DNA of 64,000 bases from Mytilus edulis (Eukaryota): positions 21,080,001 to 21,144,000 of the forward strand of contig NC_092346.1 in the NCBI RefSeq assembly GCF_963676685.1, read 5' to 3'. The translations under genes were made by a program, and so were the position numbers. Under the pieces are notes generated by a model. That model was not told the DNA's origin, did not search any database, and saw nothing but the letters and a program-made list of their open reading frames with translations. Positions 5,575-59,624 of this stretch are shown here, one piece after another; position 1 is the first letter of the stretch; each line of letters opens with the position of its first letter.

Positions 5575-8500
5575 CTATCCATCTGTGTTCTGCAGGTTTG
5601 TTAGTAGATCTGCAATTGATATACTCAATTAGAATTTTTTTAAATATGAAACATAATTTGCTTCGTAAATACGGTCACTATACAAAATACGTAAACTATA
5701 ATTGCCTTTTACCATCTGATTCTCTTTATAAGTTCTTCTGTTGAAATTCCGAATTACCTGAGCGAGATAAGATTTTATAAGTTTTCCTTTTTCATAGATC
5801 AATTATGTTCTCTTAAGCCAATCTATTAACATTAATACCGTTTAATTCATTTGATTTGCTTTGATACTACTGGAGATCACCTTTGAATCCAAATGAGTGA
5901 TGCATGTTCAGCTGAAGAGTCATTCCTGTATGGTTGATGAGTGGTACATGTTTAGCGGACGGATAATATACATAAAAAAACAGAGTTCTAAGATACCCCG
6001 TGTTGCGTATATTTTTTCTGTTCATGCACAATAACATTAAAAAAGACCACACAATTACTTTTAATTGTCTTTAATCCTTTTTATGAATATTTTCCAGCAA
6101 TAAAGGATTAAAAGTCTACTTGCAATATTGTCATATAATCTATATTTTTATGGATATAAGTCTTTTATAAATAGTTGATCAGCAATTGTTTGAGCTTGTC
6201 CGAGACTTTGCTAGAAGGTATTTCAGTAAAATGTCCAATATGATCAAACTGGTGTAATTGTGTACCCCCTGGTGTACAATTCGTGTCAGATCATGATATG
6301 TATCAATAAGATATGTTAGGTTTATATCAACATAAGGGACATTTCTGAAAGATTTGTTTTTATTTCACTGCATGGTTTTTAAAACAAAAAACAACACTTG
6401 ATTTTATCGCAAATTGTTTGGTTTTATAATGTTCAATGGTTTTCCATTTTGATATGTAAAAACGTTAACAGGTGATTAAGTCCAATTGATTGCAAACACT
6501 TGAACTTTGATTGGCCTTTGACAAGACAGCTTCATAAGTCTTACTTGTTGCTCCGTTGGCTGCTACCTGTGCTCCTTGTTGCAGGGCTTGGTTTAATAAA
6601 TCTGTTCCTTGTTGTGCAGCAGCCTGTCCCACCTGTTTAAAAGTTTCTCCAAATGTTTCACCCAAAGCATGGAGTTGCACCTTCAGTTGTTCCAAGACAC
6701 CTTGGAATGTATCTTTTAGGAACCGTTTGCTGTAAATTTGTACATCAATTCATCTTTAGACGACATTGGAAAAAAGAATATTTTCTTAACAAAAATGTAC
6801 GATATAGATTTCTGGGTGCAATAAACAGAAAAAAAACAAGTTTCAAACTTCACCTGATACTGTAAACATAGAATGGATTAGGAATTGGGAAAACGAAATG
6901 TATTGTTCAGATAACAAATACCAAACTTTGAATGCTACTACATAAGTGACACCCTTAAGTGTTTCCTACGATGACATAAGATAATTTGAAGTCAATGACA
7001 GGGATTCATACCATAGTGCGGATTTGCAATTGTTTGTCTATTATATAAATCTTATATCCAAAGCCTTGTGAAGATAATTTTCCTTATTCATTGATACAAA
7101 TAAAAAATAAGGATATGTAATTTTATTGCCAACGAGACAACATCAGACCAAACAATGAAGTTGCATATTAAAAAAAACATAGACTTTACAATTAAGTCTT
7201 TGTTCATTTTAAGGTATATTCATGTTAGCCAAAACGAACAAATGCATTGTTCACAGTCCCGATGTCGTCATTAATCATTAATTGAAACGAAATTCCTTAA
7301 TAGAATGGTTATACCTAGTTGAAAATTTAAGTGGAAACGATAAAAGTCCAATAAGTATTAAAGACTCAAAAATAGTCAGAATATATAATTTTGCACACTT
7401 TTCCTTAATTGTTATTTTGTACAGATTTCTAATGATGACACCGCCATACGTTTTCGGTAAACAGGAGGTTTATTTGTGTTTTATGGAAAAAGGTCATTAT
7501 ATTTTGCACTCGAATTTCAATTTACGAAAGGATGAAAACATAGACAGATATAAACTGATATAGCCTCGCGAATATAGCACCGGAGCGGAATATAGTTATC
7601 TATGCAATAGTTATGTTATGTTTATAGTTTACCTTGTTCCATCGGGATTTTGGAGATTTGTTAAAAGACCTAAAATAAAAACAAATTCTGATAACATTTT
7701 AATCATTTTAAGTAACATAATATATAAAAGCGATGCTTAAGATTTGTATGATTAAATGTGTTGATGTGTTCTCTCGTAATTTCTAATGATTTAAAACAAT
7801 TGTTCCAAATGTTGCAAGCCAATTCGACATGCTTTCTGTTTTAAGCGATTTTTTTTTCTGCATACCATTCCTATATTCTATTAATGGCGATCGACACGAC
7901 AGTGCAATATATAAGTAACACAAATAAAAATAGATTATACACAACTGTAAAATTCATAATGAAATGGCAATAAAAAACGCAAACAAAAATAGCTTAGAAA
8001 CGGTACCGGGAATACGAATCCTATTTTATCTGCCGTAATGGCTAATTAAAGGATGTGGTTCACTTTCCGCATCATTTGAAAGGTAAATTTGAGAGATGAT
8101 TTCAATAAGAATAGATACTACAACATTAACGAAAGTCTATAATTCTGGCTTGTGAGAGTATCACTTCAATCTCTACGACACAACCTACGTACATTGTAAA
8201 GTTTTAATTACATTTCGTTTTTAAATTTTCGTTTTCTTTTTTTCCATGATAACAATTCCAATTTCTAGGAACGCATGTCGCGTGAACTGAAATCCTTTTA
8301 ATGGATAAGTTGACACTAAAATTTCATAATAAACCGCAGCAGCTGAGATATTGAATAACTCAGTTCGAACCGAGGAATAGTTTTATATCGTTAGCCTACA
8401 ACATACTTTGCATTTTTCTTCGAGTAATGAAAACCTCCGATTTAAACATTAAACTACTAAACATCCTTATTTTTTAAATTCTTCAACAACAAATTTATAG

Positions 8501-11500
8501 ATGTTAACCTGTTGCTCCATTAGCAGCAAGCTGTGCTCCTTGTTGTAGAGCTTGATTCAAAAGATCTGTTCCTTGTTGTGCAGCAGCCTGTCCCACCTGT
8601 TTAAAAGTTTCTCCAAATGTTTCACCCAAAGCATGGAGTTGCACCTTCAGTTGATCCAAGACACCTTGGAATGTATCTTTTAGGAACCGTTTGCTGTAAA
8701 TTTGTACATCAATTCATCTTTAGACGACATTGGAAAAAAGAATATTTTCTTAACAAAAATGTACGATATAGATTTCTGGGTGCAATAAACAGAAAAAAAC
8801 CAAGTTTCAAACTTCACCTGATACTGTAAACATAGAATGGATTAGGAATTGGGAAAACGAAATGTATTGTTCAGATAACAAATACCAAACTTTGAATGCT
8901 ACCACATAAGTGACACCCTTAAGTGTTTCCTACGATGACATAAGATAATTTGAAGTCAATGACAGGGATTCATACCATAGTGCGGTTTTGCAATTGTTTG
9001 CCTATTATATAAATCTTATATCCAAAGCCTTGTGAAGATAATTTTCCTTATTCATTGATACAAATAAATATAAGGATATGTAATTTTATTGCAACGAGAC
9101 AACATCAGACCAAACAATGAAGTTGCATATTAAAAAAAACATAGACTTTACAATTAAGTCTTTGTTCATTTTAAGGTATATTCATGTTAGCCAAAACGAA
9201 CAAATGCATTGTTCACAGTCCCGATGTCGTCATTAATCATTAATTGAAACGAAATTCCTTAATAGAATGGTTATACCTAGTTGAAAATTTAAGTGGACAC
9301 GATAAAAGTCCAATAAGTATTAAAGACTCAAAAATAGTCAGAATATATAATTTTGCACACTTTTCCTTAATTGTTATTTTGTACAGATTTCTAATGATGA
9401 CACCGCCATACGTTTTCGGTAAACAGGAGGTTTATTTGTGTTTTATGGAAAAAGGTCATTATATTTTGCACTCGAATTTCAATTTACGAAAGGATGAAAA
9501 CATAGACAGATATAAACTGATATAGCCTCGAGAATATAGCACCGGAGCGGAATATAGTTATCTATGCAATAGTTATGTTATGTTTATAATTTACCTTGTT
9601 CCATCGGGATTTTGGAGATTTGTTAAAAGACCTAAAATAAAAACAAATTCTGATAACATTTTAATCATTTTAAGTAACATAATATATAAAAGCGATGCTT
9701 AAGATTTGTATGATTAAATGTGTTGATGTGTTCTCTCGTAATTTCTAATGATTTAAAACAATTGTTCCAAATGTTGCAAGCCAATTCGACATGCTTTCTG
9801 TTTTAAGCGATTTATATTTTTTTTCTGTATACCATTCCTATATTCTATTAATGGCGATCGACACGACAGTGCAATATATAAGTAACACAAATAAAAATAG
9901 ATTATACACAACTGTAAAATTCATAATGAAATGGCAATAAAAACGCAAACAAAAATAGCTTAGAAACGGTACCGGGAATACGGATCCTATTTTATCTGCC
10001 GTAATGGCTAATTAAAGGATGTGGTTCACTTTCCGCATCATTTGAAAGGTAAATTTGAGAGATGATTTCAATAAGAATAGATACTACAACATTAACGGAA
10101 GTCTATAATTCTGGCTTGTGAGAGTATCACTTCAATCTCTACGACACAATCTACGTACATTGTAAAGTTTTAATTACATTTCGTTTTTAAATTTTCGTTT
10201 TTTTTTCCATGATAACAATTCCAATTTCTAGGAACGCATGTCGCGTGAACTGAAATCCTTTTAATGGATAAGTTGACACTAAAATTTCATAATAAACCGC
10301 AGCAGCTGAGATATTGAATAACTCAGTTCGAACCGAGGAATAGTTTTATATCGTTAGCCTACAACATACTTTGCATTTTTCTTCGAGTAATGAAAACCTC
10401 CGATTTAAACATTAAACTACTAAACATCCTTATTTTTTAAATTCTTCAACAACAAATTTATAGATGTTAACCTGTTGCTCCATTAGCAGCAAGCTGTGCT
10501 CCTTGTTGTAGAGCTTGATTCAAAAGATCTGTTCCTTGTTGAGCAGCAACTTGTCCTACTTGCTTGAATGTTTCTTTAAAGGTTTGCCCGAGAGCGTTCA
10601 GCTGTTCATTAAGTTTATCAAGAACTCCCTGAAATGTGTCCTTCAAGAATCTTTTCCTTTAGTAAGAAAAAAAGAAACTTTTATGTTTAATTATGTATTT
10701 CGGCCAAAGACACATGCATGGCCGGAGTGAGAAAATCAAATCCACATAGACCTGTGGGCATTATAATTTATATAAATAGTTACTTTTGATGCAGAGCTGT
10801 CTCATTGGCACTCATACCACATCTTCCTATATCTATATATAACTAAAAATTAGAGTTCATAATAAAAAACCAGAATATCGTGGATATAACAAAGGGGCCA
10901 TAAAACTTGACTCATTGCATAGCTAAAAAAATCATGTTTGAAACATGAAATCCAGTATTTTGAGTATTTGAATTTAAAGTATCGAGTACAATGAACTGAC
11001 TCGATTGTTCTATAACCGATAGGCTGCTAACAAAATTCTATTTTTTAACTCATAATTCCACACAGTTGTAATGTACAAATAAATAAATTATTTATGTATT
11101 TCTTTGTGCTGTGTGTTCATACATTTGTTTGTACTGTATTCCTGTCCCGGAGTGTTGTCATTTTGTCGGCATTTTTAACTTTGCCAAAAAAGTGGGAGGT
11201 TTGGTTAGCCATAACACGGGTTCAACCTACTATTTTCCTTTAAGATGTCTTGTACCAAGTCAGGAATATGGCAGTTGTGATCTACAATCCGTTTATATGT
11301 ATGTTGTTGTTGTTCAGTGTTTCTGTTGTTCCGTTGTTTTCCTCTTATAGTTGATGTGTTCAGATGTGTTTTAGTTTCTCACCAGGATTTGTTTTTGCTT
11401 AATCAAACTATGACTATTGGTCAGCGATATACTACTGTTGCCTTTATTTACTGCGTTAATTTCATTACAATATAAGTGGGTTTTTTACCTTGCATCATCA

Positions 11501-14500
11501 GGATTTTGAAGATTTGTTACCAGATCTGAAATAAGAAATTGTGGTGTTTCAACATTTGAATATTTTTTTCGAAAGGGAAACGTGAGCTGGAAGTCAGATT
11601 GTTATTAGTTTTCGAACTCCTTTAACAACTCAATACCATGTCATAAAAGGTCAATCAAAATTTGAAGGACATTCGATTTTAAGTCATACATTATCATTGT
11701 TAATATGCTTACTCTTTCATCCAATTTGGCTTTCTACCCTTTGTAAGACATTTTTTTAAATTAGATACGTTTCCAATTCTGAATGAATTGAAAATACTGG
11801 AATGCAATTGACACAATGTTCGATGATTTTGAATTTCACATGTAATATATAATATAAGTAAAGCTATAACAAACACAAATCAACGGCTCCAATAATGCAA
11901 AGATGTTGAATACATTTAGATTTTCTTGTTTGTTAGATTTTTTGTTTGGAACGTGTGGTTTTCTCACAAAATAAAAAAAATTATCCTTTTTCTATTATAA
12001 GATTCTTACATGTACGACAAAAAATACCAACTCCAAGGTAAATCAAGGAAGTTGTTAATCTTTTTTTTTGGGGGGGGGGGTGTTTGTTTTTTGTTGGTGT
12101 TTTCTTAGATTATTCTTATTAACTTCTACACTATCATTGAGTTGTTAATCTTTTGTAATCTATAAATTCGTAAATAAAATCATTCAAAGAAGAGTGTAAC
12201 TGAGCTTCAGTTGCATCTTAATTCAGGTGATGAACTTTTGATTTGAAATAAAACTACGAATTCTTTTCATATGATACTACAACATATGAACAAATACTTA
12301 CTTGTAGCTCCATTAGCAGCAAGCTGTGCTCCTTGTTGTAAAGCTTGGTTTAAAAGATCTGTTCCTTGTTGAGCAGCAACTTGTCCTACTTGTTTAAAGG
12401 TTTCTGTAAATGTGTTTCCGAGAGCTTTTAGCTGTTCATTAAGTTTATCAAGAACTCCTTGGAATGTGTCTTTTAAAAATCTTTTCCTGCAGTAATAAAA
12501 TGAAACGTTATATTACAGTAGATATGTGTTATGGACGAAAATATACTGAATTTTTAAAGTTTAGATGTTAGACATTATCAGCCGATTAATACAGAAAAAA
12601 ATACTAATTTACCAAAAAAAAACAACAGGAAAAAGTAATGAGGCAGAAAACTTAATATCACAGTGGCGAATACAACAATTTATAGTATTACAGTTATCCT
12701 TAGAAAGTCACATAATTTCCACCTACCACTTGAAGAAGGAGTGAATGCACATTGTATCGAGGTATATAAACGGATTAGGTCAGCATAGGTCCTATTGCAA
12801 TTTTACAAAAGTTGCTTACAAATATAATTTTTCTAAAAACATAGTATCTGTATGTGTTTAGAATATATTAACTATTTATTATTTAGCATGTAATGCATAC
12901 TATAATACTAGACAATGAAACCAGCTTTTGATGATTTTAGAATTCCTGAGCTTCGGAACCTGATTTAATTTTTTTTTAAATCAATATTTACACTAGATAT
13001 TCAATTTTCAAGAACTACTATGTTTTAAATTATTTCATTGAGAAAATTCGCATAATTTCAGAATGCCGAAAGTAAACTCGATTAGTTGTATTATTTCTAT
13101 GGCAAAGAGTGAAAAACAGTCGTAGTAGTACTGCCATTCATTTTAGTGCAATTTTTCAGTATATAATACTTAATCAAGTTCTCTATAATTTTATAATTAA
13201 CGAAAACATATAATAAACAATTCAACAATTTCATTAAAAAAAAAAGATTGAAAACAGGAAAATGTTTTATTAAAGGGACATCTCTCTTCTAAACATCGAA
13301 ACCACGCCACATCTGTCATTAACAGAGAAACCACGCCCCAACGGTCGTTATCAGACGGAAACCACGCCCATCCGGTCATTATCATGTAAAATTTGTTAAC
13401 GATCGGTTTATGGTACGTTTTGTTCTGTTAATGACTGATTGAGTTTATTACTGAAGAATAAAGAATGTCATGTGGCCCCTTTTTATCCAATAATAGAAGA
13501 TAATAGAAGCGTATTCTTCACCGATATGAAATAATCAACACTGGTTCTATACATTATGATATATTAAAATATTCGTTAAATCGTATGATAGTAAAATGAC
13601 GATTTAAGTATAAAAAGAACAAACGAAGACTAAATAATATAGACAGCAACCAACGACCACAACGGAATTTCATGCTCTTGGCACATTACAACAAATTTGG
13701 CGTAGTTTATGATCTTTGTAAACATTGAACCTCCTCTGAGATGAGACAATAGTGCGACTGCACAAGACAAGAACAAACCATAAATTTTAAAATCATTAAA
13801 ATCTTTACCAAATAGATTGGAACTACACACAAAAAAAATCCATGACAAATTAACGGACTAAACCACAGCGCACCGATTTAAGAGTACTCATAGATGTTTC
13901 AACTTACTCACAGCTAATGATTTAATTACTATGTACGTACTTGCAAAACCAAATATGTTCTCTTATGTACATTTAATGCATCGTTCTAATAAAATACAGC
14001 TAGCCTTTATGATAAAGGACGAACAGCCGCATGACTATGGATGAAATGATGCGAATCAATAATGATAAAAAGTCACCTCCCTTTACTTGTTCACAATGCC
14101 AGATATTTAAAATATCCTTCCTTACAAAATAAACTTTGCAGTATCTATACAATACTGACAAAATTTTATGTTTACCTTGTTCCATCAGGATTTTGGAGAT
14201 TTGTTAGGAGATCTGAAAAAAACAATTTCAGCTGATTAAACACTTTTAAATGTGGACCACAAGAAAGCTATTAAACCAAGAGTTCCAAATGGTGAATGGG
14301 AAATCATCCCTTCGTAAATTTTACGGGCCTCATCACGAACTGGTTGACCGTTATGGAATAACCGTTTCAAAGATGATATCGGATATGTTTCTTATGTCGG
14401 ATCTTTCACCATGAATATGACCTACCGAATAAGACTATTTACCGAGCTCGTAATAACATGAGCAACACAACGGATGTCACGTGTGGAGACCCTTCCGAAG

Positions 14501-17500
14501 CACCTGCGATCACCCAAGGTTTTGGTGGGGTTCGTGTTACTTAGTCTTTAGTTTTCTTTGTTGTATCTTGTATACTATTATTTGTATGTTTGTCTTTTTA
14601 GCCATGGCGTTATCCGTTTATTTTCGATCTATGAGTTTGACTGTCCTTCTGGTATCTTTCGCCCCTCTTTAAAGTAACTTGTTTCGTTGAAAGAGTGAAC
14701 GGCGATGGAGGATTAGGAAATTTAATTTTTGTGTACTTTTTTGTGTATTTCTTTAAATATGATCAAATGTAACAACTTATAATTTAATTAATTGATTTTT
14801 CTTACTTTTGAAAATTGAATAATTTTTTTTAAAACGACAATAATAATAAAATGTTTCCAACAGAAAATTTCTACCAGTTAAGTAAAACAAAGCGGAGAAA
14901 ATAAGCCCATTTTCATATTGTAAGATGCAACTTGAATTGAATAACATTATCAATCAAACATTCCTACTAAGTTGTTTAGGTTTAAAGTGTTAGATGTTAA
15001 TAGTAGCTGAAAGCTGCATGGAATCTCTTATAAATGCATTAGAAACTCTACGTTTTCTTGAAGATAATATAAATGCACAATATGCTTCTGCTTATTGCCC
15101 ATGTTTCAAGCATCAAGATAAGTTTATGAAAATTCCTGGAACAGATATTTGAACAAATTATTAAAGGGTTATATGTTATCCTAAACATATCGATTGTATG
15201 AAACATTGCAATATCCCAAGTTGTTATTAGATCCTGAATATTTCTCTGGTATTGAACTTCTTATCAAATAAGATATTTACTTGTAGCTCCATTAGCAGCA
15301 AGCTGTGCTCCTTGTTGTAAAGCTTGGTTTAACAGATCGGTTCCTGATTGTGCAGCAACTTGTCCAACTTGTTTAAATGTTTCTTTAAATGTTTGTCCAA
15401 GAGCATTTAGTTGTTCATTAAGCTTGTCTAAAACGCCTTGGAAAGTGTCTTTTAAAAATCTTTTCCTGTTGAGAAAATACAAATGTTCTTAAAGCCATGA
15501 TTAACATCTGTATCGGCGAACAATATTTTGCATTCGAGCGTGAAGATATAGCCAACCAATAAGCAGTTATATCAATGGAGATACTCTTTCAATAAAAAGA
15601 TTTTTAAAAATCATCACTGATAGTTCACCCATTCAAAATAAAAATGCCAGCTCACTTACTTGAGCGTAATGATATAGCCAACCAATTAGCAGTTATATCA
15701 ATGAAGATACTTTTTTAATTAAAATAATTTAAAAAAATCATCACTGATAGTTCACCAATTCAAAATATAAATGCCAACAATCTTACTTAACATGATTGGC
15801 TGTGTACTTCACTTGACAATGGAATTGGTCGAGAATTGACAAAATAATGATTTTTTTTTTTTTAGCAACTTTATTGTATACAAAATTAACTCTTTTGTAA
15901 CGTGAGAACTACCTTGTTCCGTCTGTGACTGCTGCATGTTGAAGGTTAGTAAGAAGATCTGGAAGGAATAATTTTAAAATTAAAATTATGTCATCTGATT
16001 ATGTTCATGATGTGAACAAGCCCTATGTAACCATCCTATATCATCTTATAATGTTTTTTCAAGTACAAGAGGTATGTGAATATCTTTCAGACAAAAACAT
16101 ATTTGTTATATATAGCAGTAGCTTATAAAACGAACGAAACTAGCTGTTCAGTCCTGTGAATTAATGTTAATTTTGAATCCAGGAAATTTTAGTTCGTTTC
16201 ACGTGATGTTTTTTGTTGTTGATTATTTCGAAAATTCATTATAGATTTTCATCTTTATTTTATGAGTTGAGTTTCAATTAGCATGATATATTGAACTTCT
16301 GTTTGGTTTTTTTAATCAAAAATATACATCAGAGGATTTTAATGTCCGGACATATCAATCTCGAAGAGATTAAGTGTACCAAGTCAGGAATGTAATAGTT
16401 GTCCATTTGTTTGATATGTTTGAGCTTTTAATGTTGCAATTTGTAGGGACTTTCCGTTTTGAATTTTCCTCGGATTTCAATATTTTTGTGATTTTACTTT
16501 TTGCAAGATTATATTTTTAAATGAACGTATTTTTTCTTATCATTTGTATCTTAAAGTGCTGATTCACGACAAATTGCAAACTGTAATCTACATTATATGA
16601 TTGTACTTAGTTTAACTTTTGTTTGCTTCTTAAAGTTTGAGAATTGCATTATATTTAATCGTTTGTACATTTGAGAAAAAGTTTTACTTGTTGCTCCATT
16701 AGCTGCTAACTGTGTTCCTTGTGTCAGGGCTTGGTTTAATAAGTCTGTTCCTTGTTGTGCAGCAGCCTGTCCCACCTGCTTAAAAGTTTCTCCAAAAGTT
16801 TCACCCAAAGCATGGAGTTGTACCTTCAGTTGATCCAAGACACCTTGAAATGTATCTTTCAAGAACCTTTTTCTGTAATTTTTAAAAAAACAATTTATCT
16901 TAAGAATACATTTGCAAAACAAAACTGCACAATATAGATTTGTGTGTGCACTTTACATATTTCTTGTTTACTGTAAAATAAATCGGAACAGAAAAAATAA
17001 ACTTCAATGGTGATTACAAAAACAAATGTTGAATGCTACTCCACGAGTGTCACCCATAATGTATTTCATACAGTAAAATAAGATAGGTTAATGTCAATAA
17101 TAAGGATTCATACCACAGCGCAGAATAAGAATTGTTTGTCTATTATAAATCTGATATCAAAACCCTCCTTAAGAAAATGCACCTAATGCATTCAAAACAA
17201 TATGAAATGGGGACATATGTTTTGATAACCATTTAAGAAGATGTACGTTTCAAAAATGAAGAAATAGACATAATCTTGTTCCGTGAAATATACATTACCT
17301 TGTTCCGTCGGGATTTTGAAGGTTAGTCAGAAGATCTAAATGGCGAAAAAAGAAATTGGTAATTACATCTTTTAAAATATTTTATATTGCCATTTTTATA
17401 TCGGATTCGTAATGTAAGTAAATAAAATATTATTAAAATTTATTTGAAATGCTTTGGTTAAAAAACTTCACAACGTCATAGATCGAAATTAAGCAAGATT

Positions 17501-20500
17501 TTTTATATTGACCGTCAGAGTACATTTTTAAAAATAGAAACATGTAGCGTCAATATACTTCAAAATAAAACAAGGCTTTGGATACATGAAATAAACTTTG
17601 AAACACGTGATCGTAATGACCAAAGAAAAAAGTAGAATGCTACACCATATGTAATATTGTTTCATATCATTTCATAGATAGACTTTTTAGTTATGTTATA
17701 TGAATGTTTAAACGTTTTCTTATGATGTCAACTGTACGAGTCATTTTGATAACACAATTTAATGCTGACGCTTACTTGTTGCCCCATTAGCGGCTACTTG
17801 TGCTCCTTGTTGTAAAGCTTGGTTCAACAGATCTGTTCCTTGTTGGGCAGCAACTTGTCCTACTTGTTTGAATGTTTCTTTGAATGTTTGTCCAAGAGCA
17901 GTGAGTTGTTCATTAAGCTTGTCCAAAACGCCTTGGAATGTGTCTTTCAAGAATCTTTTGCTGGAAAAAGTAATCCATAATCTTTAGTGTATAGCATAGT
18001 AAATGAAATACCAAGTAGCATCATTGGATAGAAAACGATACAAAGGACAATATAAAAGTATAGATCAATTCAACAAATTCGTTTATAATAACTGTTTTTA
18101 TCCGTGATCTGTTTAATTTGTTATGTGGAATAAAAATTATGTTCTTGAAGATCCTAAATGAACTACCATAGATGTTTAAAGCTTTAAATTACCTCATTTT
18201 CCGAACAAAATATTTACAATTCACGTTTGCGTAAGGATATCTTAATTTTATTCTACAATATGAAAATAAGGAGATGTGGTTTGATTGCAAATGAGACAAT
18301 TGCCCACCACAGTTCGAATGTAAGCAATTATATCCAACCGTACGGCCTTCATTGATAAGAAAACGTCTTTCTTATAATTTCATATAATTAAACCCTAATT
18401 TGATTCCTGTCATATTTTAAAACATTGAAAAAAGTTTCCCGTATATCAAATAAGTCACACTTATAAAACATTGAGAGACCAAACAATCTGTTTTAAAATA
18501 AGTCTTTTCGTGAAAAACACAAAGACGGCCTTATATAATTTAGATTTTTTTTTAAAGTTACTACATTATGTTGTCATAAAGGCGAAATATACTAGTATTG
18601 AGGATAAAAGGAGAGTATTACCTTGCTGTTGTGCCATCAGGGTGGGCAAGATTAGTCAACAAATCTGAAAAAGAATATACGTCTGCTAATAGAAATATGT
18701 AATGGTAATAATGAATAAAAAAATGACATTTCAATAATACGTAATAAAAAAAAATGCACAAGCTAACCAGCAAGAAAAGGAAACACAAAACAATAAACTG
18801 GAACACAATTACAAAATTACAACATGGTACACACTTTCGAGTAAAAATATAAATATATAAGTTTTATACTATACATAAATTTCAACTTATGTGACAATCA
18901 ATCATTGTTAAGTTGGAATAACAGAGCATATAAGGTCTGTCAAAGCGATTCCAATGATAATGCTCAAAGGAAAGTGGGATATACAATTCACTAATAGACG
19001 AACTTAAGTTTTGGTTCCGTTCACCCAAAGTAGATTCAAAACAAAACAGGTTCTTTTTTTAAGAAATAAAGTAGCGGTCGCTCTAGGAATATGTTCCTTG
19101 TGGAGCAGCAAGTTGTCCTACTTGTTTCTTCTTTTTTCAGTGTACCGTCAAATTTTCAAACGTTTTTGTATTTCACTATGTTCAGCAGTTATAGTTTCTA
19201 TTTCAAGCATTTTTAGATTTAAAATAATTTGTCCGAAGATTTGTATAATTGCCATCTTGGTTTTTTTTTATTTCGTCGCCCGTGAACTATGGAACAACAA
19301 ATTCGAAAATATATTGTTTGGCCTTTTTATGTTTAGTTCATGTCTAACAGAACGTTAATCTCACATCTCATTTTACTCATGTCTATAACTAAAGAGAGTA
19401 AATTATTAACAGTGTTTCAAAATGATTTCTTTTTCATAAAATAACCACGGTAATGTCAGGATATTGCAGAAAAAGAATGATTATCTTCATAGCATTATTT
19501 TGTAAAAGAAAATTGTGTTCTTTGGCTACAAGAGAGATTATATAAGATATCCTGTAGTCGAAGTTCTTTCCTAGATTTAACTTCATGAAATCAGGCAATG
19601 CACTTCACATAACATACGCCCTATTCTTGGCGGCAAAATCTTTAAATATTTGTTCACGTTATGTGTTCTCGTTATTTGTTTTAAATACTCATCTCAACCT
19701 ACAAACATATGTGGTATGCAATAAAACCAGATTTCTTTGTTGTTTCAGAACACATGATCAACTCAACTCGATCTCTGCTTACTGATCATTGCATTCATTT
19801 TTAAAGTTGTATGAATTTTAAATAGGCATTTGGAAATTTAATGACAAAGTAATAGATTGTGAGTTGCAATAAAAGTTCACTACTTTCTGTAACTCAGAAA
19901 CCTTATTCGTACGGATTGGATCGTAAAATAGACAATTTGTTTATATTTAAACATGCGAACAATGAAAAACCAAACGTTATCAAACACACATACTAAAAGC
20001 TCCTTTCACTGCAAGATTTGTTCCTTGTTGTAAAGCTTGGTGTAACAAATCTGTTCCTTGCTGTGCAGCAGCTTGTCCAACTTGTTTGAAGGTTTCATTG
20101 AATGTTCCACCTAATGCATTCAACTGAAGTTTCAATTGTGCCAATATGTGCTGTACGTCATCCTTCAGAAATCTCTTGCTAAAGAACATAGTTTCAGATT
20201 AAGTATAAACAACTTCTTTCGACAATATAGATACAACAATATTCAAAGTTGCATGTCTGACCATTAATGTTAATTTGTAAATTTTATCTATGAAAAGATT
20301 TACCGAGATAATTGGCAACAAATGTCGTTTTACTTTTACTTTGGAGTAACCAAATATGATAAAGCAGTATTTTTCAAGAAAAAAGAAACAAAGGATTCAA
20401 AACCAATATCTAATAAATAGGCCTTTGAAACATTTGTTTACCAAACATTAAAACAATAATGCAAAATATTGCTATTTGCAACGCATGATAGCATGAACAA

Positions 20501-28369: not shown

Positions 28370-30070
28370 ACATAAATCAGTGCAAGGAAGACACTGGTCC
28401 TTGCAAACACATGCTGTCCCTGCTGCCTGGTACGCCTTTTTCCCCATTACAAGAACGAATTAGATCTTGTAGAACGTCTGTTGCCATTTGTCACTCAAAG
28501 AAAACTGACTATAACTTGCGCAGTTTTCCAACCAAAAGCACATGGGGAGCCATTATTATTTTGGGTTGGTTAAATTTGTCAAAATGGAGCAAGTTGTATG
28601 GTACAATTACTAGACAATTCAAGTGACAAGACATATCCCTCTCTGCATATCATTCTACGAATTGCCCACAACATATCTGGAGTCTGGCCGATTGGATTCT
28701 CTGCAAGTGTTTAAAAGTTCAAGTGCAATTTGACATCGCGACGGTTCGCCTTTTATTTTTGGTTTTGTAATGGATAAGCACTGCATCAGCGAGGATACTT
28801 TTTCCGGCGTCATAGAGTAATGATTTGTTCGGTTTCCGTTCAAACCGTTGTCTGATACTAAATCCGAGTGTTCCATGTAGAACTGAATTTTGGAATATAG
28901 CACGCGCCATCGAGTGAAATGGTTTTTTTTTTTACCGTCAATCGTTTCGGCATTAATGTCAATGTTGTCAACACCTTCTTGGAATAAGGAACCACAATTA
29001 GCTATACCGAATTGGACATAACAACCACCTTGTATTTTTGTTATTTCAGCATTCGCTACACTAGTCAAAAACCTCCGAACCTCGTCATACTTGACATAGA
29101 AACCATGTGCATTAAAATAGTCAATCACAGACTTCGATCCGAGCTCCTGCAGGAGCGGATTCAGCCATTTTAAAAAGGGGGTTCCTTTACTTATTTAAAA
29201 ATTTATCATTTTTTATCTTAATATTGAGGCTGCTTCATAAAGTACATGCATATCGGTCTGTTCATTGGTTTTGATGGAGCTACATGGACTTAAGTAGGCT
29301 TTTATCTCAAGCATTTCTAATTATGCTTACATGTTATTTGCTGCTTTAACAGCGACTTCAATGGAAATATCGCTAGCAAATACAATGCTAGATTTACCTT
29401 GTCCTTGTTGAGCAAAAAATCCAATGGCATTCCCGTAGTGCTTCTCAAGTTGATCTTATGTCTTACTTACTTTATCAGGTAAAAAAGACTGGTACAATGT
29501 CAAAAGTAATGACAATACCAGAGAGTTTTTGTCACAAATAAGGTCTCTGTTTATAATTTCACTTACTCTTTCAAATGCCAAATCATACGCAGATTTATCA
29601 GTGGAGTTTGGTCTATATGCCAAGTATGTGGTCAGACATGCTGCGTGATACATTGCATTATTGATCAAATTATCTTGCTCTATTCGATGAATTATTCCAG
29701 CGTCGCATGTTCTAACAGCAGCATCTTTAAGATTGAATAACCTTTCAGCGTATGAAATTGTATGTAAAGTGTTCACCCTTTTATGAGACATTTTTTTGCA
29801 AATAATACACTTTGATGTATTGTGATCAATATTTTCAGGCACCAAAGAATAAGTTACATCAGAATTTATATCTGGTGTTTCCTTTTCAGCTAAAAAACAT
29901 GATACTGATTTTAAATTCTGCTTACTTGTGTAGCTTTTATAACATGACCTATGATACCTAAATACGGGTAATTCACTTGCTGTTTAAATTCATTGCATAA
30001 TTCATTCAAATACCTGGACAAATAATCACGTATCTTTGCTGCAGCATTTATCACACTTTTTCTTCCAGAT
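28370..30070 (-). pseudogene. Fragmented Academ transposase ORF
   Basis: ORF pieces 29456-29845 and 28655-29128 plus a Cys-rich terminus near 28370-28420, broken by stops, frameshifts and a large deletion. Confidence 0.7.
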
Positions 30071-31377: not shown

Positions 31378-31944
31378 TAAGGAGTTTTTAATCCCAGGCA
31401 TGGATTACCCTATTAATCGTATTTGGTACAACTTTTTGGAATTTTTGGTCCTCAACGCTCTTCAAATTTATACTTGTATGGCTTTATAGCTATTTTTGAT
31501 CTAAGCGTCACTGATAAATCTTATGAAGACGAAACGCACTTCTGGCGTATCAAATTATTAACCTGGTACCTTTGATAACTATTTACACTATTGGTTCGAT
31601 GTCACTGCTGGTGGACGTTTCGTCCCCAGAGTATTACCAGCCCAGTTGTCAGTACTTGGGTGTTGACATGGATATCAATTATATGGTCCTTTTTATAAAT
31701 CAACTGTCTACAAAAGTATGAATTATTCGAAATACTAAGGTTTTTCTTATCCAGAGCATAGACTACCTGTTCTTAGCCGTATTTGGCACAACTTTTTTGA
31801 ACTTTGGGTCCTCAACTCTCTTCAACTTTATACTTGTTTGACTTTATAGCTATATTTGATCTGAGCATCACTAGTGAGTCTTTTGTAGACGAAAACGCGC
31901 GTCTGACGTATCAAATTATAAGCCTGGTACCTTTGATAACTATT
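31378..31944 (+). repeat. Right part of the degenerate retrozyme array (two mutated hammerheads, ~31505-31548 and ~31865-31909)
   Basis: Same unit as 39361-40406; cores read CTGATAA and CTAGTGA instead of CTGATGA. Confidence 0.75.
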
Positions 31945-33985
31945 TAGTCATTGAAACCATGTATTTACCTAATCAACAGATGACAGTTAGTGTATAGTAA
32001 TACCGAATGGCACGTACATGGTATTTTTGTTAAGCAGATGCGATATATCTGTCGTAAAGTGTAATTAAGAACACGCTTGACTCAAATTGAAATTTTCTTT
32101 CAAAACTTTCGTGGGTGTGTTTCCTGGTTCGTTAAATATATTGTTACGTAGCAAACATTCCGTTTCAAATTGACTAGTTACATTACAATAATTTAAACAA
32201 ATATATGTATTCCGTACTTTTTTCATGACGTATAACAAACTTTTTAAATATTAACCTGTAAGCTTCTACTCCAGTAGATATTATTTTAGAATAAGAATGT
32301 CCTTCCTAGACGTTGCATTGTTCAATAGCTATTCATAATTTGAAACAATGTATCAAAATTGTTGTTTTGATGTCTGTTTTCTGTGTTATATGTTGTGGAC
32401 AGTTGCTACAATGAAGAGACTGTGCATCTGGTGCAGAAAAAATGATACCGTTAATGTTATTGCTTTTCTGTTTTGTATTTTCATGGTTCTTGACTGTCCA
32501 ATTTCTTTAATATGTGTTTTTTCCAAAACTCTTGAAGGTTATGAGATTTATTTTGATAGAAAAGTGTGCTTTTCACTTGATGTCCGAACGATAAGTTTAA
32601 ATTCAGATTTATATTTAATGTTTATGGTCAAATAAATTTTAAACAATATGACAATGATAGAAAGTCAAAACTTTATGATCCTTTGGAAAAAAACCACAAA
32701 GGAGTGTTTGGTCAAGATTCTCAATGGTCGTAAAAATAACGCGTATTTTAAAAAACAAAGTGTTTAAAATTTATTAAATCATTCCGCTTAAACCAGCGCT
32801 AAGGGCTGGTTTAAACTTGTAATTCTGAGTAGAAGGGTTTTGACTTCGAGATCTAGAAAAGAAACATAGAAGCGTTACAAAATAACATAGAAGCTATGTT
32901 TCCTTACATTTGTTTGAGTTTGGTTTCTTGATGATCTTTTGTCATGAAAGGCAAAATCGTGTACACGAGAGAAGCCTCCTTAAATATACCAGGAAAGCGT
33001 TACAAAATATTATATATGTAATTCTTTATTTGCAAAACAGACAAAAACCAATTTTGGTTATGGAAAATACATTGACAAAACAAACATGATCAAACATAAT
33101 GAAAACTCGACAATATTATAAGAGATATATATGATAAAAACAGTTATTGTTCTCCTTTCCTCAGTTCTAATGACTCTTTAATAAAAAAAAAAAAACTGCT
33201 TTTACATCATTTGGTGTTGATGGATTTAGTATAATCACGAGTTTATCAGTAAAATTAAGTGTTTTAAAATTCACATATTTTTGTATTTAATATTTTAGAA
33301 AGATTTCTTTTTTATTTTCATTTATTTTACAGTTAAAGAAAAATGAAATTCATCGTCTAAGATATTACATATTTTACATTTTCTTTCATTTCGTGGTATT
33401 TTGGTATATCGTCCAGTTTCTATTAAGAGACAATGGTATCCTCGAGGCTTTAAATGTAGTAGTTCCATATTTTGAACCCAGATTTTTCTACACTGGGTCA
33501 AACGTAATTTTTAAATCTATAACAAGGTAGTAAAGGTATATTTAAGTTATGACAGATAAATCAAGTCGTGCGGTAATTGGCCTTTTAAAAACCCTATGAA
33601 GGAAAAGGAAATTACAAGTTAAGAAAAAAATAATGAAAATTTTCAACTATATTATTATGAACTATAAAAAATACAACACTTCCTTTATATTATTTAATAT
33701 ATTCATGTTAAATTGTTTTTTTTCTTTAAAAACACTAATAAGGGGAAATAAAGAAAAAATAAAACTACACTTTTCGGTCAATCACATCTACATTGTTCAA
33801 ATAAAAAATGTTTTAATGGAAGTATATATGTATATACGTAGTTAATAGTGAATAAAACGTTTGTGTATACTCTGTATTTATTTCTCAATTATTACAGGAT
33901 TGCTTCCTAAATATATTGTTCAAGATATATTATTAACCAACTAAGTACATTATTGCCAAAAATGACTATTTATTAAAAATTACAT

Positions 33986-39077: not shown

Positions 39078-42000
39078 TCAAAATCTGCTGTGTCTACCTA
39101 TTTCACAATTACAGTTCGGACAAACATGTACAACATCCTTGGCACTTTTAATACAAAACGGAACGGCGCAGCATCCTAAGAAAAATCTGAAATATAATAA
39201 AATGAAAATAAAATTAGAATCGGTAAAATTGACGATGGTACAACTGTCAACCAGAATCAAACGACGTGTAGGTAAGCAATTATAATTCACCATATGACCT
39301 TCAACAACGAGAAAGCCCAGACCGTATAGTCTGGGCCACAGAATGTCAAATCGTCGTCCTGCCACTGCTTGTGGACGTTTCGTCCCCGAGGGTATCACCA
39401 GCCCAGTAGTCAACACTTCGGTGTTGACATGAATATCAATAATGTGGTCATTTTTATAAATTTCCTGTTTATAAAACTTTGAATTTTTCGAAAAACTAAG
39501 GATTTTCTTATCCAAGGCATAGATTACCTTAGACGTATTTGGCATAACTTTTTAGAATTTTGGATTTTAAATGCTCTTCAAATTTGTTCTTGTTTGGCTT
39601 TATAAATATTTCGATATGAGCGTCACTGATGAGTCTTATGTAGACGAAACGCGCGTCTGGCGTACTAAATTATAATCCTGGTACCTTTGATAACTATTTA
39701 CACCACTGGGCCGATGCCACTGCTGGTGGACGTTTCGTCCCCGAGGGTATCACCAGCCCAGTAGTCAACACTTCGGTGTTGACATGAATATCAATAATGT
39801 GGTCATTTTTATAAATTTCCTGTTTATAAAACTTTGAATTTTTCGAAAAACTAAGGATTTTCTTATCCCAGGCATAGATTACCTTAGACGTAATGGCACA
39901 ACTTTTTAGAATTTTGGATTTTAAATGCTCTTCAACTTTGTTCTTGTTTGGCTTTATAAATATTTCGATATGAGCGTCACTGATGAGTCTTATGTAGACG
40001 AAACGCGCGTCTGGCGTACTAAATTATAATCCTGGTACCTTTGATAACTATTTACACCACTGGGCCGATGCCACTGCTGGTGGACGTTTCGTCCCCGAGG
40101 GTATCGCCAGCCCAGTAGTCAACACTTCGGTGTTGACATGAATATCAATAATGTGGTCATTTTTATAAATTTCCTGTTTATAAAACTTTGAATTTTTCGA
40201 AAAACTAAGGATTTTCTTATCCCATGCATAGATTACCTTGGACGTATTTGGCACAACTTTTTAGAATTTTGGATTTTAAATGCTCTTCAACTTTGTTCTT
40301 GTTTGGCTTTATAAATATTTCGATATGAGCGTCACTGATGAGTCTTATGTAGACGAAACGTGCGTCTGGCGTACTAAATTATAATCCTGGTACCTTTGAT
40401 AACTATTCTATCGAATGCTGGAGGTCATGAGTCAAATATTGGCCAAGTAAAAAATAAAAAGACTTGAACATTGGTATTTGCTGCTTCTCCAAAGTGTTAA
40501 AAAATATGTATGAATGCACTGAAGCTTCAGTAAAATATAAAGAAAACATATCTGATTCAGTATTTATAGATAGAGGCTTGAAACAGGGTGACAGCCTCAG
40601 CCCAAATCTTTTTAATATTTATATAAATGACCTTCCTGAAATTTTTGATAGTGACTGTAAACCAGTAAATCTCAATAACATGTCATTAAGTTGTCTTATG
40701 TTTGCCGTTGATTTACTTTTATTGTCTGAAAGTGCAGAGGGTTTACAGAAGTCATTAGAGAAATTAAGTAACTATTGTAAAAAATGGCAGTTGTCAATCA
40801 ACATAAATAAAACTAAAGTGATAGTATTTCAACAAAAAAAACATACCATACACTAAAGCAGAGTTTACTTTGGATGGTTATAAATTAGAAAAAGTATTAA
40901 AATATAAATATTTAGGTAATATTATAGAGGCTTCTGGTAAATTCCATACATCACATATGGAACTATCAAAAAAAGGCACAAAAGTTCTATTCAGTTTGTT
41001 TAAATATTTGAATAATATAGAAAATATACCTATAAATATACATAAAAAAATGTTTGAATCTTTAATAAAACCTATTTTAATGTATAACTCAGAAATTTGG
41101 TATATGGACTACTATGAAAAAATATTAAGATCTCAGAGTAGAGCAATAAATAATCATAAAGATTTTGATTTATTAACATCAATTGATAATAGCTTTATTG
41201 AAAAGGTGAATTTAAAATTTTGCAAATTAATTCTAGGTTTAAGTAAAAAAGCAGTAAACATTGCATCAAGGGCAGAGTTAGGACAATATCCAATAGATGT
41301 ATATGTAAAGGTTCAAGCACTAAAATATATGGCAAGAGTATCTAACACAGAAATTAATCCGTTGTTATATGATGCATATTGCACAGCTAAACTGTTGGAT
41401 GAAACAGGAACCTATTCTTGGTATACCTTTGTAAAAAATATAACCCATGAAAATAATTTAAATATATCTGATATACAAAATATTGACTTTATAAAAGAAA
41501 AATATAAAATGAATAAACACATGAAAGAGATTGTGCAAGAAAACTATAAAAAGCTGTTCTTTAAAAAATTAAATTCTTTAACAGAAAATAATAAATTATT
41601 TATCTATAGTAAATTCAAAAAGAAATATGAAACTGAGCCTTATTTACTTAAAGAGAATAACTTTGAAATAAGGAAAAAATTCACTAAATTAAGGGTGAGT
41701 GACCATATTTTGGAAATTGAAAGGGGTAGATACAAAAATATAAAAAGAGAAGAACGTTTATGTCAACATTGTTGTCTAAATGAAATAGACGATGAAGAGC
41801 ATTTTTTATTTACATGTACAAAAAATAAAGATTTGAGATTTGAATTTTTGCAAAAAGTTAAAAATATCTATTCCGATATAGATAATATGGATAATTTGGA
41901 TAAATTGGTTTTATGTCTTTCTTGTCCGTCAATTATGCAGTATGCTGCTTCATTTGTTGAAAAGTCATGGTCACTGAGGAGGGTGGACTCAACAACTGCA

Positions 42001-45000
42001 TAATAGATACATATATGTATATAATGTTTGGTTCTTTTGTTGGTTTTTTTTTGTATGATGTATTGTAAAATTACTATGTTGATTTATGTATGCCTTCAAC
42101 CCATATGGGTACAAATGTGCATTATTTCCGATGTATCTTACCCAAAAGACGCAAGCATGATACAAGCAACCCATGTAAATGGACCAGCTTTATGTTCTGT
42201 GTTGGTTACTACTTTCGTGTGACATTCTGGACAATCTGTTGCAAATGGTATCTCGCTTTCTGCGGCATATTCTGGTGGGTATCCTTTATTTGTTGGTTGA
42301 TTACCTGCAACAATATAGTTAACAAATGTATGTATTTGCCAATAACCTTTTACAGGTTCACTCGCCTCGTTATAGTATTTTGTAGGCGGTTGAAAGCAAA
42401 CACCAATCAACCAATAATTTTACAGGTTTTTTTCAAAGTTATTTTATGCTTCTGGGATAAGACGTAACAGGAAAATGAATTGCATAAATATACACAAATT
42501 TCATAAACATTGTAGATTTTCTTTTTACTTCCTGCTGATTTCTAAGAACATTTTTATTTTTAAAAGGTAGAGAAAACATCACAATATGCTTCCGATTCAG
42601 ATTATCTCAATGGCAGTAATGTATAACATAAATTGAAAAGTCGTCGATCAAATATGAAAGAAGGTATAATAAGGCCACCATTATTGGCACTTTCGACACG
42701 AAAATTAAAAATGTCTTTATTCATATTTTAAAATACTAGCAAACACCAGCGACATCGCGGATTTATGACTAAATTAAAGTACCAACGACTTATGTTAATG
42801 CTGAAATTTTAGTACGCAAAGCGTATAAGACACCGATAACGGTCACCAAATTTTGATATGTTCTCAAACATTTGCGTTTTCTGTGGCAAAATATTGTTTT
42901 AAAGAAGTACATTTATACGTCATTTCACAAATATTTCCGACTTTGTATGGTTACAGAAGAGTAGCGACTAAATGAATATCAAATATTATATATATTTCGT
43001 TTGTTGTTTTGTACATAATTCGTTTCTCTAGTTTTTCTCGTTTGAACTGCTGTTTGAACCAGTTATAATTCTTATATGAGGGCCCTCGTGGGGTTTTTGA
43101 TTATGTGATTACTTGGCCGTTTTTTTAATGATTATTTGATTATTAAGCCAAATATTTCATGATTATTTGATTACCTAGGACTGTATTTTTAGTTTATGAT
43201 TATTTGATTACTAAAGATAAGCAAATATTTAATGATTATGTGATTATATTGGCAAAAAAATGGTGATTATGTGATTACTAGGACCCCCCCCCCCCCCATA
43301 AGGGGCCTCTTATATGATTTGCATATTAGGGAATACGTTGATAGGCTTGGTCGAGAGAACTTCCGGTAGTTGATCTTGACGTTCAGTGGTTATTTTCGAT
43401 AGACGACGTTGACCGAACTTCTTTTCGTAACAAGTGTCAAGGTAAACAAGCAGCGGCGATAATAACACCGACGTCAACAAAATTTATTTTCACTGCACGT
43501 TAATCGTTGACACCTTAGTGAGACCTATATTAACTTATAATTCTGAGATAACATATTTGGACGCATATATAACATATTTCAAAGCTAAAAAAAGAGCTTT
43601 GGTTTCTGGAAAAATTGTGGACCCATTTAATTTTATTGACAAGACTCTAATAGAAAACTTGCATCTTGGTTATTGCAAGTTTACCCTTGGCACTAACAAG
43701 AGTGCCTCAAATTTTGGTACAAGGAACGAATTGGGAAGACTGCCTATTGAATGTCATATAAAAACCCAAACTATTATGTATTTAGCAAGGCTTTTCACCT
43801 CAAATTTGAATCCCTTATTACATGAATCTTTTCAATTAACTAAAACTTTGGATTCTAGTGGCTCCTATTCATGGTTCACTTTTGCAAAAGATATTCTTTC
43901 TGAATCTAACATTGATATAAATAGACTAAAAACCTGTAATAATTTAAAACAATTAAAAAATATTAAAAGCTATATTAAACCCCAAATAAACTCATATTAC
44001 AACAACCTGTTGATGGATAAGTTGAAATCTATTGACGATAAAAGTAAATTAAATTTTTATAAAGGACTTGAGCCAAATCTATTGATCAAACCTTACCTCT
44101 ATAACCCAAACTTTGAATTTAGAAAATTAATTACAAAACTTAGAATCAGTGACCATTCATTACTAATTGAAAAAGGAAGGCATTTTAAAATTCCTCGCGA
44201 AGAGAGACTTTGCAAAAAATGCAAAGTACTAGATGATGAGAAACATTTTTTAATAAATTGTTCTCATAATTCAAATATTAGATTAACATATTTTAATTGC
44301 ATTAACAGAGAAAGTAATTCATTTGCTAATCTCACTGACAATGACAAAGTTATATATATATACTTAACCCATCAACACCAACACAAGTGAATAAACTAGG
44401 ATCCTTTATAAAAAAAAGTCAATGGAACTGAGGACAGGGGACCCTTTAATATTTACCTGAATTTGTGTATATATATTGAGTTACTTAGTTATTGTCTTTA
44501 TTTGTTTTTGTTGTTGTTATATGTCACAAACTGTATAGTTTATATGGCAATAAAATATTGAATTGAAAAATTGAATTGTTAAATAAAATAATACACAAAA
44601 ACATTCGTTTAAGAGTTTTTGCAGTTATAACTTTTTATCAGATAGCAAATTTCATTGAGAACATATTTTTGCGTTGATCAACAAATATATTCATGCGCCA
44701 GACATAAATATACAATTTACGTGTGATATAGGTAACGAGTGTTGAAAATATATATTCCTTATCTCCAATTTTAGAGAATTAAAAGGATTAAACGCCTTTT
44801 TCAAGGAATTTCTTAGTGTATAAACTGGACCAAGTCTATACACCAATAAATTCCTTTAAAAAAGCGTTTTATCCTATAATAAATATAGCCTAATCGGTAA
44901 GCATAAAAACCCGATTTTTTTCATTACGTGAATGACCCAACAAATCTCTCCGTCTTAGCTGTTTTGCGTTTTTATTTGTGTTTGTTGTTATTAGTGTTAT

Positions 45001-48580: not shown

Positions 48581-49134
48581 AGCTCACCTGACCTACATGT
48601 ATAAGGTAAAAGTCCGCTTTTCCCCGCCATTTTTTGTTTTTATCTCGAACGGAGATATGCATAACCATTCAATATGTTAGTGTATTTTGTTCCTAATCAA
48701 ATGATCTTCAGACTAAGTATCAATTTTAAATTCTAGATTTTTTTAATTTCACAAAAGTACATCCTTAAATTGACATCATCAATAAATAAAGAATAGATTG
48801 GCCTCTGCAAGCTATATCTAATATACTAGTCAACCAAAGAAAGGATTCGATGTCACAGAAGTAAAGGTACGAATCCCTCTGAAGATGAATTTTCCGATCT
48901 ACCATTGTTTGGTTAAACTAGAGAAAACATGTATACATGTATAGACAATAATAGTGCATTGACTTGACATATCGTATATGTCAAGTCAATGCACTATTAT
49001 TGTCTTTATACTGCAATCTAAAAAAATCATTTTCAATTGTTGTCTAATTCGTTAAGGTTATTTATTTGATTTTTAAATATTGGGGGAAATCCCCTTTAAA
49101 AAAGGCCTCATACCATGCTCTGAAATATACTGAA

Positions 49135-58387: not shown

Positions 58388-58504
58388 ATGTTTGATATAT
58401 TTGTTCTCTGTGTTTCTAGAGAGAAAGCAAAAGCCGAACCATACCTTATATATGAGCTAACAGGAAACTTTGTTGGGTTATTATTTGGCGTTACCAAAAG
58501 CAGA

Positions 58505-59465: not shown

Positions 59466-59624
59466 ATATATGTTTGTGATCTGATTAATGAAGGCAAAAT
59501 ATGAATCAGCTTCTTTGCATCAGAAACGAGGGTTGCATGGTGGTTACCTAGACTCACCAATGATATAATGTACTGTCATGTATTTATTTTATCATTGACA
59601 ATCAGAACCATTCCAATTTATTTA

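What the first reader, a model, noticed from the sequence alone, without database searches (positions are those of the whole stretch)
6600..10541. Unequal crossover caught in the act: a 1.96-kb duplication created a chimeric module 8
Seen: exon 8693-8509 matches module 9 (6729) in its 5' part and upstream intron, but matches module 7 (10656) in its 3' part and downstream intron, including the weak GTTAAC donor and the GLLTNL linker. The switch lies in a 15-nt stretch identical in all three exons (ATCTGTTCCTTGTTG). The two intron copies differ by only scattered SNPs and small indels. Inference: recent exon-mediated unequal recombination between modules 7 and 9 produced a new hybrid peptide, and an 8-module allele probably exists.
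Basis: partly seen in the sequence, partly recalled or inferred. Interest (0 to 1): 0.7.

Follow-up and report, generated by a model that had tools for sequence, protein, structure and literature searches.

The report
Shared hybrid-exon duplication in mussel precursor
A 2-kb internal duplication gave a mussel gene of repeated peptide modules one extra, hybrid module; its junction is also in other sequencing runs and in RNA, so it is a real but ordinary shared variant, likely made by a slip between two similar exons, not an event caught in the act.

Summary
Observation confirmed. The unit 6600-8563 / 8564-10541 is duplicated (13 substitutions, 5 indels in 1,973 bases). Exon 8693-8509 is module-9-like down to 8579 and module-7-like from 8563; the switch lies in a 15-nt run shared by all three exons. 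It sits in a 19-exon, 693-aa Mytilus gene: a signal-like leader plus nine ~74-aa helical modules, eight preceded by KR. It is not an assembly artefact: pieces covering the junction appear in 4 of 8 laid runs (four studies, two organism labels, one RNA run with the linker spliced), and contig depths fit one hybrid per haploid genome in three DNA runs. Two runs of a third organism label show no junction and the unduplicated module 7-to-9 link, as does a M. galloprovincialis protein, so the predicted pre-duplication link exists. 'Caught in the act' is wrong: this is a standing, probably common allele. The parent exons are only 73% alike, so microhomology-guided switching fits better than textbook unequal crossover. 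The hybrid peptide differs from modules 9 and 4 at only 3 of 66 residues. The event is ordinary (compare haptoglobin HP2, frog peptide genes); the uncharacterised mollusc family is the more open question. Interest 0.3.

The parts
6600..8563 (-). Duplicated unit, copy A (3' part of module 8, intron, linker exon L8, intron, 5' part of module 9)
8564..10541 (-). Duplicated unit, copy B (3' part of module 7, intron, linker exon L7, intron, 5' part of module 8), including the shared 15-nt core at both ends
8564..8578 (.). Switch interval: 15 nt identical in modules 7, 8 and 9; no inserted bases at the junction
8549..8593 (.). Span of the 15 junction 31-mers that are unique in the window; the same span is a 0-difference contig in runs X1, X5, X7 (8550-8588 in RNA run X17)
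8509..8693 (-). Hybrid module-8 exon (185 nt), 5' like module 9, 3' like module 7, GTTAAC donor
10472..10656 (-). Module-7 exon, parent of the 3' part
6545..6729 (-). Module-9 exon, parent of the 5' part
9595..9631 (-). Linker exon L7 (37 nt, GLLTNL...)
   Evidence: this linker sequence is spliced in RNA run X17
7633..7669 (-). Linker exon L8 (37 nt, identical copy of L7)
5575..5609 (-). Last coding exon with stop
   Evidence: matches the C-termini of P0001, P0002, P0004
21320..21384 (-). First coding exon, signal-peptide-like leader (judged by eye, no predictor run)
   Evidence: identical to the N-terminus of P0001 and P0002
11489..20917 (-). Modules 1-6 (185-nt exons at 20917, 20178, 17960, 16872, 15465, 12486) with their linker exons
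   Evidence: all introns GT..AG

Best explanation
This is a real 1.96-kb tandem duplication inside a Mytilus gene of repeated peptide modules, shared with other sequencing runs and spliced into RNA, that likely arose once by a homology-guided strand switch at a 15-nt match between the module-9 and module-7 exons. Shown: the hybrid exon, the in-register junction without inserted bases, junction pieces in 4 of 8 laid runs, the spliced linker in RNA, and the unduplicated link in organism C and in P0004. Inferred: that the switch was microhomology-type (replication template switch or homeologous crossover), that X1, X5 and X7 are homozygous (from contig depth), and that the order 7-8-9 holds in those animals. 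Because every module and linker exon keeps the same intron phases, any in-register switch keeps the frame, so such products would survive. The product is predicted to be a secreted precursor cut at KR sites into ~72-aa amphipathic, slightly acidic helical peptides, likely lipid- or surface-binding; the duplication would add one near-redundant peptide.
For: Anatomy. Polarity: module 9 matches module 4 over its whole exon (169 of 185) with a 74%-alike upstream intron, while module 8 is the mosaic. Junction pieces with 0 differences: X1 depth 43.6; X5 depth 9, X7 depth 13.2, RNA run X17 depth 1,428. They coincide with the window-unique junction 31-mers, one of which carries three module-7 and three module-9 letters. 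Depth fits: 9/9 is best for X5 (residual 3.4 vs 31 and 144), X7 (16 vs 87, 313) and X1 (233 vs 601, 2,080); 8/8 is best for X13 (59 vs 224, 483). In X17 the linker-join contig has about twice the depth of the junction piece (3,084 vs 1,428) and the flanking intron bins are empty. X10 runs through module 9 and module 7 unbranched. Only two copies of the intron and nine modules exist in G000, all in the window. AlphaFold model: one helix, residues 2-57, mean pLDDT 82.9, pTM 0.42; net charge -1 to -3.
Against: One holder could be the window's own sample. Contig depth is described by the tool as no copy number; the fits use 3 to 6 short pieces per run, X1 fits only loosely, and for X13 one record served two features and the zero was read from a depth bin. 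X3 and X4 show only branch points; 38 and 19 records were not displayed. A 15-nt run is not rare between these exons (32% of shuffles). Cleavage, secretion and function are untested.
Confidence: 0.88

Rival explanations
1. Assembly artefact: two haplotypes of the module 7-to-9 interval were placed in tandem.
For: The copies differ by 0.66% substitutions, below the 1.73% heterozygosity reported for M. galloprovincialis (PMC7653742, passages). No read from the window's own animal was identified.
Against: The junction sequence exists in runs of four studies, including RNA, and intron-adjacent contigs are at twice single-copy depth in X7 (20.3 and 19.7 vs 9-13). A haplotype merge would not create those 31-mers in other animals.
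Confidence: 0.03
2. A very recent, private event.
For: Intron copies are 98.5-98.9% identical; runs of organism C lack it.
Against: Same junction in samples S1, S4, S6 and S12 from studies P1, P3, P2, P7, under two organism labels plus a gut RNA run; depth fits homozygosity. It is young against the other modules but has spread through a population.
Confidence: 0.04
3. Classical non-allelic homologous recombination (unequal meiotic crossover between misaligned homologues) rather than a microhomology template switch; the two copies then started out as two different alleles.
For: Junction is exactly in register between paralogous exons 4 kb apart or less, with no scar. Crossovers in matches under 50 bp are reported for nearby alpha-globin repeats (PMC2583991, passages). 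Copy differences are of allelic size.
Against: Exons only 135 of 185 identical, longest perfect run 15 nt, against 134-232 bp in mammalian cell tests and 300-500 bp estimated for human meiosis (PMC2583991, passages). The reciprocal module 7/9 deletion hybrid was not seen. Sequence alone cannot separate the two routes; this rival differs from the best explanation only in the enzymology.
Confidence: 0.35
4. The single-copy link in organism C is a later deletion from the duplicated allele, not the ancestral state (as has been argued for HP1 from HP2).
For: Two 99%-identical 1.96-kb copies are now a good recombination substrate; X10's single copy carries a mix of copy-A and copy-B letters. PMC7426911 (passages) notes this reversal for haptoglobin.
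Against: Module 8 is the mosaic, so a module 7-to-9 ancestor must have existed anyway; M. californianus has 8 modules with a G-type linker after module 7 and no such hybrid.
Confidence: 0.12

Closest known systems
Haptoglobin HP2 allele (human)
   Same: A standing 1.7-kb intragenic duplication of an exon pair, polymorphic in copy number, with possible back-deletion (PMC7426911, passages).
   Different: Here the junction lies inside a coding exon and makes a hybrid exon; in HP2 whole exons 3-4 are duplicated. No sequence relation.
Pipid frog multi-peptide precursor genes (magainin, CPF, caerulein, hymenochirins)
   Same: Signal peptide plus tandem repeats that arose by duplication of a two-exon unit, with low variation attributed to recent duplication, conversion or unequal crossing-over (PMC3899252, passages).
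   Different: Mussel modules are ~72 aa and net negative; no homology found; antimicrobial activity untested. That the frog peptides are short and cationic is recalled.
Yeast CUP1 arrays
   Same: Tandem duplication in natural isolates attributed to unequal non-homologous or microhomology-guided events (PMC4232551, abstract and opening text).
   Different: Whole-gene duplications from a single-copy gene; here an in-exon switch between diverged paralogous modules.
Mytilus mCRP-I precursors
   Same: Mussel secreted precursors whose module number varies, with in-between-module indels (PMC10138031, passages).
   Different: mCRP-I modules lie in one exon and are cysteine-rich; the authors exclude exon duplication. 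Here each module is its own exon pair and has no cysteine.
Orthologues LOC143069352 (M. galloprovincialis), LOC127738924 (M. californianus) and scallop, unionid, pearl-oyster and abalone relatives
   Same: Same gene or family; KR-separated helical modules; all named uncharacterised or hypothetical.
   Different: Module counts 8 (P0001), 7 (P0002, P0004, two different sets) against 9 here; none of these carries the hybrid module 8.

Membership tests
Classical NAHR / unequal crossover product | Junction in register between paralogous repeats, without added bases | tested here: met
Classical NAHR / unequal crossover product | Long near-identical processing segment (over ~100 bp) at the crossover | tested here: not met
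   15 nt perfect, exons 135/185 identical; thresholds from PMC2583991 passages, which also note cases under 50 bp
Classical NAHR / unequal crossover product | Reciprocal deletion allele (module 7 5' part joined to module 9 3' part) | tested here: inconclusive
   Not seen among displayed records of 8 runs; contigs drop rare variants and 57 records were not displayed
Microhomology-mediated tandem duplication | Short microhomology at the junction of a head-to-tail duplication | tested here: met
Microhomology-mediated tandem duplication | Origin in replication or repair rather than meiotic crossover | not testable with these tools
   Needs phased haplotypes or genetics
False duplication from merged haplotypes | Copies differ at allelic level | tested here: met
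   0.66% substitutions vs 1.73% heterozygosity
False duplication from merged haplotypes | Junction absent from independent reads; unit at single-copy depth | tested here: not met
   Junction in 4 of 8 runs; unit near twice single-copy depth in X7
Transposon-bounded duplication | Terminal inverted repeats or element at the unit ends | tested here: not met
   17 short inverted pairs, none at the unit ends; intron occurs only twice in G000
Pipid-type multi-peptide antimicrobial precursor | Signal peptide plus tandem two-exon repeats with basic cleavage sites | tested here: met
   Gene model; KR before modules 2-9, ER before module 1; signal peptide judged by eye
Pipid-type multi-peptide antimicrobial precursor | Cationic mature peptides and sequence homology | tested here: not met
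   Net charge -1 to -3; no Pfam family above cut-off for 5 of 5 modules scanned; no solved relative below E 0.55
Pipid-type multi-peptide antimicrobial precursor | Antimicrobial activity of released peptides | not testable with these tools
   Needs synthesis and assay
Myticalins | Three exons, one highly cationic mature peptide, anionic C-terminal extension | tested here: not met
   Definition from PMC12294457 passages; this gene has 19 coding exons and nine acidic modules

The most novel reading that the evidence does not exclude
The gene is the mussel member of an undescribed, mollusc-wide family of secreted polyproteins that release many acidic amphipathic helices into the gut (lipid carriers, surfactants or mucosal defence), whose module number and mix are actively tuned by in-exon recombination; the nine-module hybrid allele has swept some Mytilus lineages and is absent from another, making it a one-PCR lineage marker and a test case for dosage selection on peptide type.
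Probability: 0.2. Interest if true: 0.6.

Novelty: new member of a known kind. Interest (0 to 1): 0.3.

Why it matters
It is a clean, verified example of how a modular gene grows: a switch inside a conserved exon keeps frame and splice phase and adds a working module. The junction is a simple presence/absence marker that separated organism labels A and B from C in this small sample. The effect on the protein is small. The larger gap is that the host gene belongs to an unnamed mollusc family with no hit in three identifier or motif searches of the paper library.

Tried and rejected
Pfam scan of 5 of the 9 modules: only weak hits under cut-off. PDB sequence search with the module profile: best E 0.55, ignored. 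ESM Atlas with P0004: best score 0.76, a rotifer cluster, below the lead level; the single-module query gave no result, so no Atlas view of a single module exists. No fold search was run: a single long helix would match meaninglessly. Paper searches by accession and by short motifs found 0 papers; two topic searches listed myticalin, CRP-I and other papers, none on this gene by title or abstract start; supplements and subscription journals were not searched and could name it. Earlier scan findings: none by place or sequence. Inverted-repeat scan gave no element ends. Dating from copy divergence rejected: it is within allelic range. Polarising copy differences with X10 was considered and dropped: one outgroup, collapsed bubbles. 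Absence of the junction in X10 and X13 rests on unbranched contigs and depth, not on lack of cover alone; rare hybrid alleles in those samples are not excluded. The JGI label 'arsenate reductase-like' on fragment P0014 is treated as a mis-annotation. An earlier count gave 14-15 SNPs and 6 indels; the counted values are 13 and 5.
Full report
1. Observation. The window holds a head-to-tail repeat whose two copies are 6600-8578 and 8564-10541. They align over 1,973 bases with 13 substitutions and 5 indel events. The exon at 8693-8509 follows module 9 at 37 of 38 informative sites on its 5' side and module 7 at 12 of 12 on its 3' side; between them lie 15 nt (8564-8578) identical in all three exons. 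There are no inserted bases at the junction.

2. The gene. On the minus strand, 19 coding exons from 21384 to 5575 give a 693-aa frame: a 24-aa leader that looks like a signal peptide, then nine modules of 70-77 aa, each a 185-nt exon plus a 35-46-nt linker exon. All introns are GT..AG. KR precedes modules 2-9. G000 (1.37 Gb) holds these nine modules and two copies of the intron, all in the window. The closest named proteins are uncharacterised Mytilus proteins: M. californianus P0001 with 8 modules and M. galloprovincialis P0002 and P0004 with 7 each. P0004 matches window modules 1-4, 6, 7 and 9 (0 differences in the first 66 residues for six modules, 2 for the last) and joins module 7 through the GLLTNL linker directly to module 9. 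This is the pre-duplication link, although P0004 lacks module 5, by deletion or by gene-model skipping. A profile search found 20 relatives at E up to 0.001; of the 10 looked up, 7 are named mollusc records (three scallops, two unionids, pearl oyster, abalone), all uncharacterised, and 3 are metagenome fragments.

3. Real or artefact. Of 24 listed runs, 20 hold part of the stretch; I laid 8. The 15 31-mers that span the switch are unique in the window and cover 8549-8593. A contig of exactly that span with 0 differences is present in X1 (organism A, study P1, depth 43.6), X5 (organism B, P3, depth 9) and X7 (organism A, P2, depth 13.2), and 8550-8588 is present in RNA run X17 (P7, depth 1,428). 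X3 and X4 show contigs starting at 8564, and X4 one ending at 8578, the branch points a hybrid creates, but their junction pieces were not displayed. X10 and X13, both organism C, show none: in X10 one contig runs through module 9 with module-9 letters into its downstream intron and another runs through module 7 unbranched; in X13 the bin 8554-8561 is filled by a module-7-type record alone. So 4 of 8 direct, 2 of 8 indirect, 2 of 8 without. Fitting contig depths to copy numbers favours two nine-module alleles in X1, X5 and X7 and none in X13. Limits: these are short-read contigs, the pieces are shorter than the tool's bridging rule, depth is a rough guide, and one run could be the window's own sample. 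X1 and X5 differ from the window in flanking introns (loose ends), so they likely are other animals or haplotypes.

4. Expression. In X17, an invertebrate-gut metatranscriptome, one contig joins the shared 3' exon end through the 37-nt linker to the next module's 5' part, so the GTTAAC donor is used; the intron bins on both sides have no cover. That join has depth 3,084 against 1,428 for the hybrid junction, the 2:1 ratio expected if the transcript holds two linkers and one hybrid exon. Contigs cannot give level or tissue, so 'gut-abundant' is only a hint from one library.

5. Mechanism. Module 9 is a whole-exon paralogue of module 4 (169 of 185 nt; upstream introns 74% alike), and module 7 groups with modules 3, 5 and 6, so module 8 is the derived mosaic. 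The parents share 135 of 185 nt, and the switch fell in one of their two longest perfect runs (15 nt each). Such a run is not itself unusual (32% of shuffles); the exact register is what shows homology guided the event, with selection for frame as a further filter. Efficient unequal crossover in mammalian tests needs over 100 bp of perfect match, though cases under 50 bp are known for close repeats (PMC2583991, passages). I therefore favour a microhomology-type switch (about 2 to 1) over textbook crossover; the sequence cannot decide. The 0.66% copy difference is below mussel heterozygosity of 1.73% (PMC7653742, passages), so it could predate or postdate the event and gives no age. The array shows older rounds: the module 4/9 pair, and a 52-nt identical 3' tract in modules 5 and 6 (max-chi p = 0.026, uncorrected over 36 pairs).

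6. Consequence. The hybrid peptide differs in its first 66 residues at 3 positions from module 9, 3 from module 4 and 7 from module 7, because the 3' part is the most conserved. The main change is one more module of the 4/9 type. A module folds in prediction as one helix (residues 2-57, pLDDT 82.9, pTM 0.42), has hydrophobic moments of 0.32-0.63 and net charge -1 to -3. My best guess at function, by inference only, is a secreted precursor cut at KR into amphipathic lipid- or surface-binding peptides; an antimicrobial role is less likely given the charge. Resemblance to exchangeable apolipoproteins is recalled, not tested.

7. Comparison and novelty. It works like the haptoglobin HP2 duplication (PMC7426911, passages) and the exon-pair repeats of frog peptide genes (PMC3899252, passages); it is not a member of those families, nor a myticalin (PMC12294457, passages) or mCRP-I (PMC10138031, passages). 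Searches by accession and motif found no paper on this gene; supplements and subscription journals were not covered. The event is a new instance of a well-known kind.

8. Verdict. Observation confirmed; interpretation partly supported; real standing variant, confidence 0.88; interest 0.3.

Noticed in passing
window 19089-19127 (minus strand, intron after module 2): A 39-nt orphan piece of a module exon, 3-4 mismatches to modules 6, 3 and 7, covering the same region as the switch core; possibly a remnant or a patch left by an earlier template switch.
   Followed up: partly
window 12302-12353 vs 15281-15332: Modules 5 and 6 share a 52-nt identical 3' tract but differ at 19 sites upstream: an older conversion or in-exon exchange.
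   Followed up: partly
window 16679-17216 vs 6536-7116: Module 4 with its upstream intron is a 74%-alike older copy of module 9 with its upstream intron.
   Followed up: partly
P0002, P0003, P0004 (M. galloprovincialis records): Two different array layouts in one species' records: module 6, S-linker, last module (P0002, P0003) versus module 6, module 7, G-linker, module 9 with module 5 missing (P0004). Could be real array polymorphism or gene-model skipping.
   Followed up: partly
window 10471-10467 and 8508-8504 (minus strand): The GTTAAC donor after modules 7 and 8 puts an in-frame stop right after the exon if the intron is retained; the donor is used in RNA.
   Followed up: partly
window 40458-42000 (+), 43446-44387 (+), 57012-58415 (-): Long stop-free stretches of 132-468 codons that look like LINE reverse-transcriptase fragments (label recalled from motifs, no family scan run).
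   Followed up: no
window 60130-60650 and 61443-61963: 521-bp inverted repeat, 93% identical, around about 0.8 kb; possibly a non-autonomous DNA transposon.
   Followed up: no
window 39360-40407: About three tandem copies of a ~354-bp unit at 98% identity, with 82% relatives at 31378-31946.
   Followed up: no
window 28658-29983 (-): Two stop-free stretches of 175-179 codons beside an element repeated at 49133-49502 and 59615-59957; possibly a decayed DNA transposon.
   Followed up: no
P0018, P0019: Scallop and abalone relatives also carry near-identical terminal or internal repeats, so module expansion appears to recur in this family.
   Followed up: no
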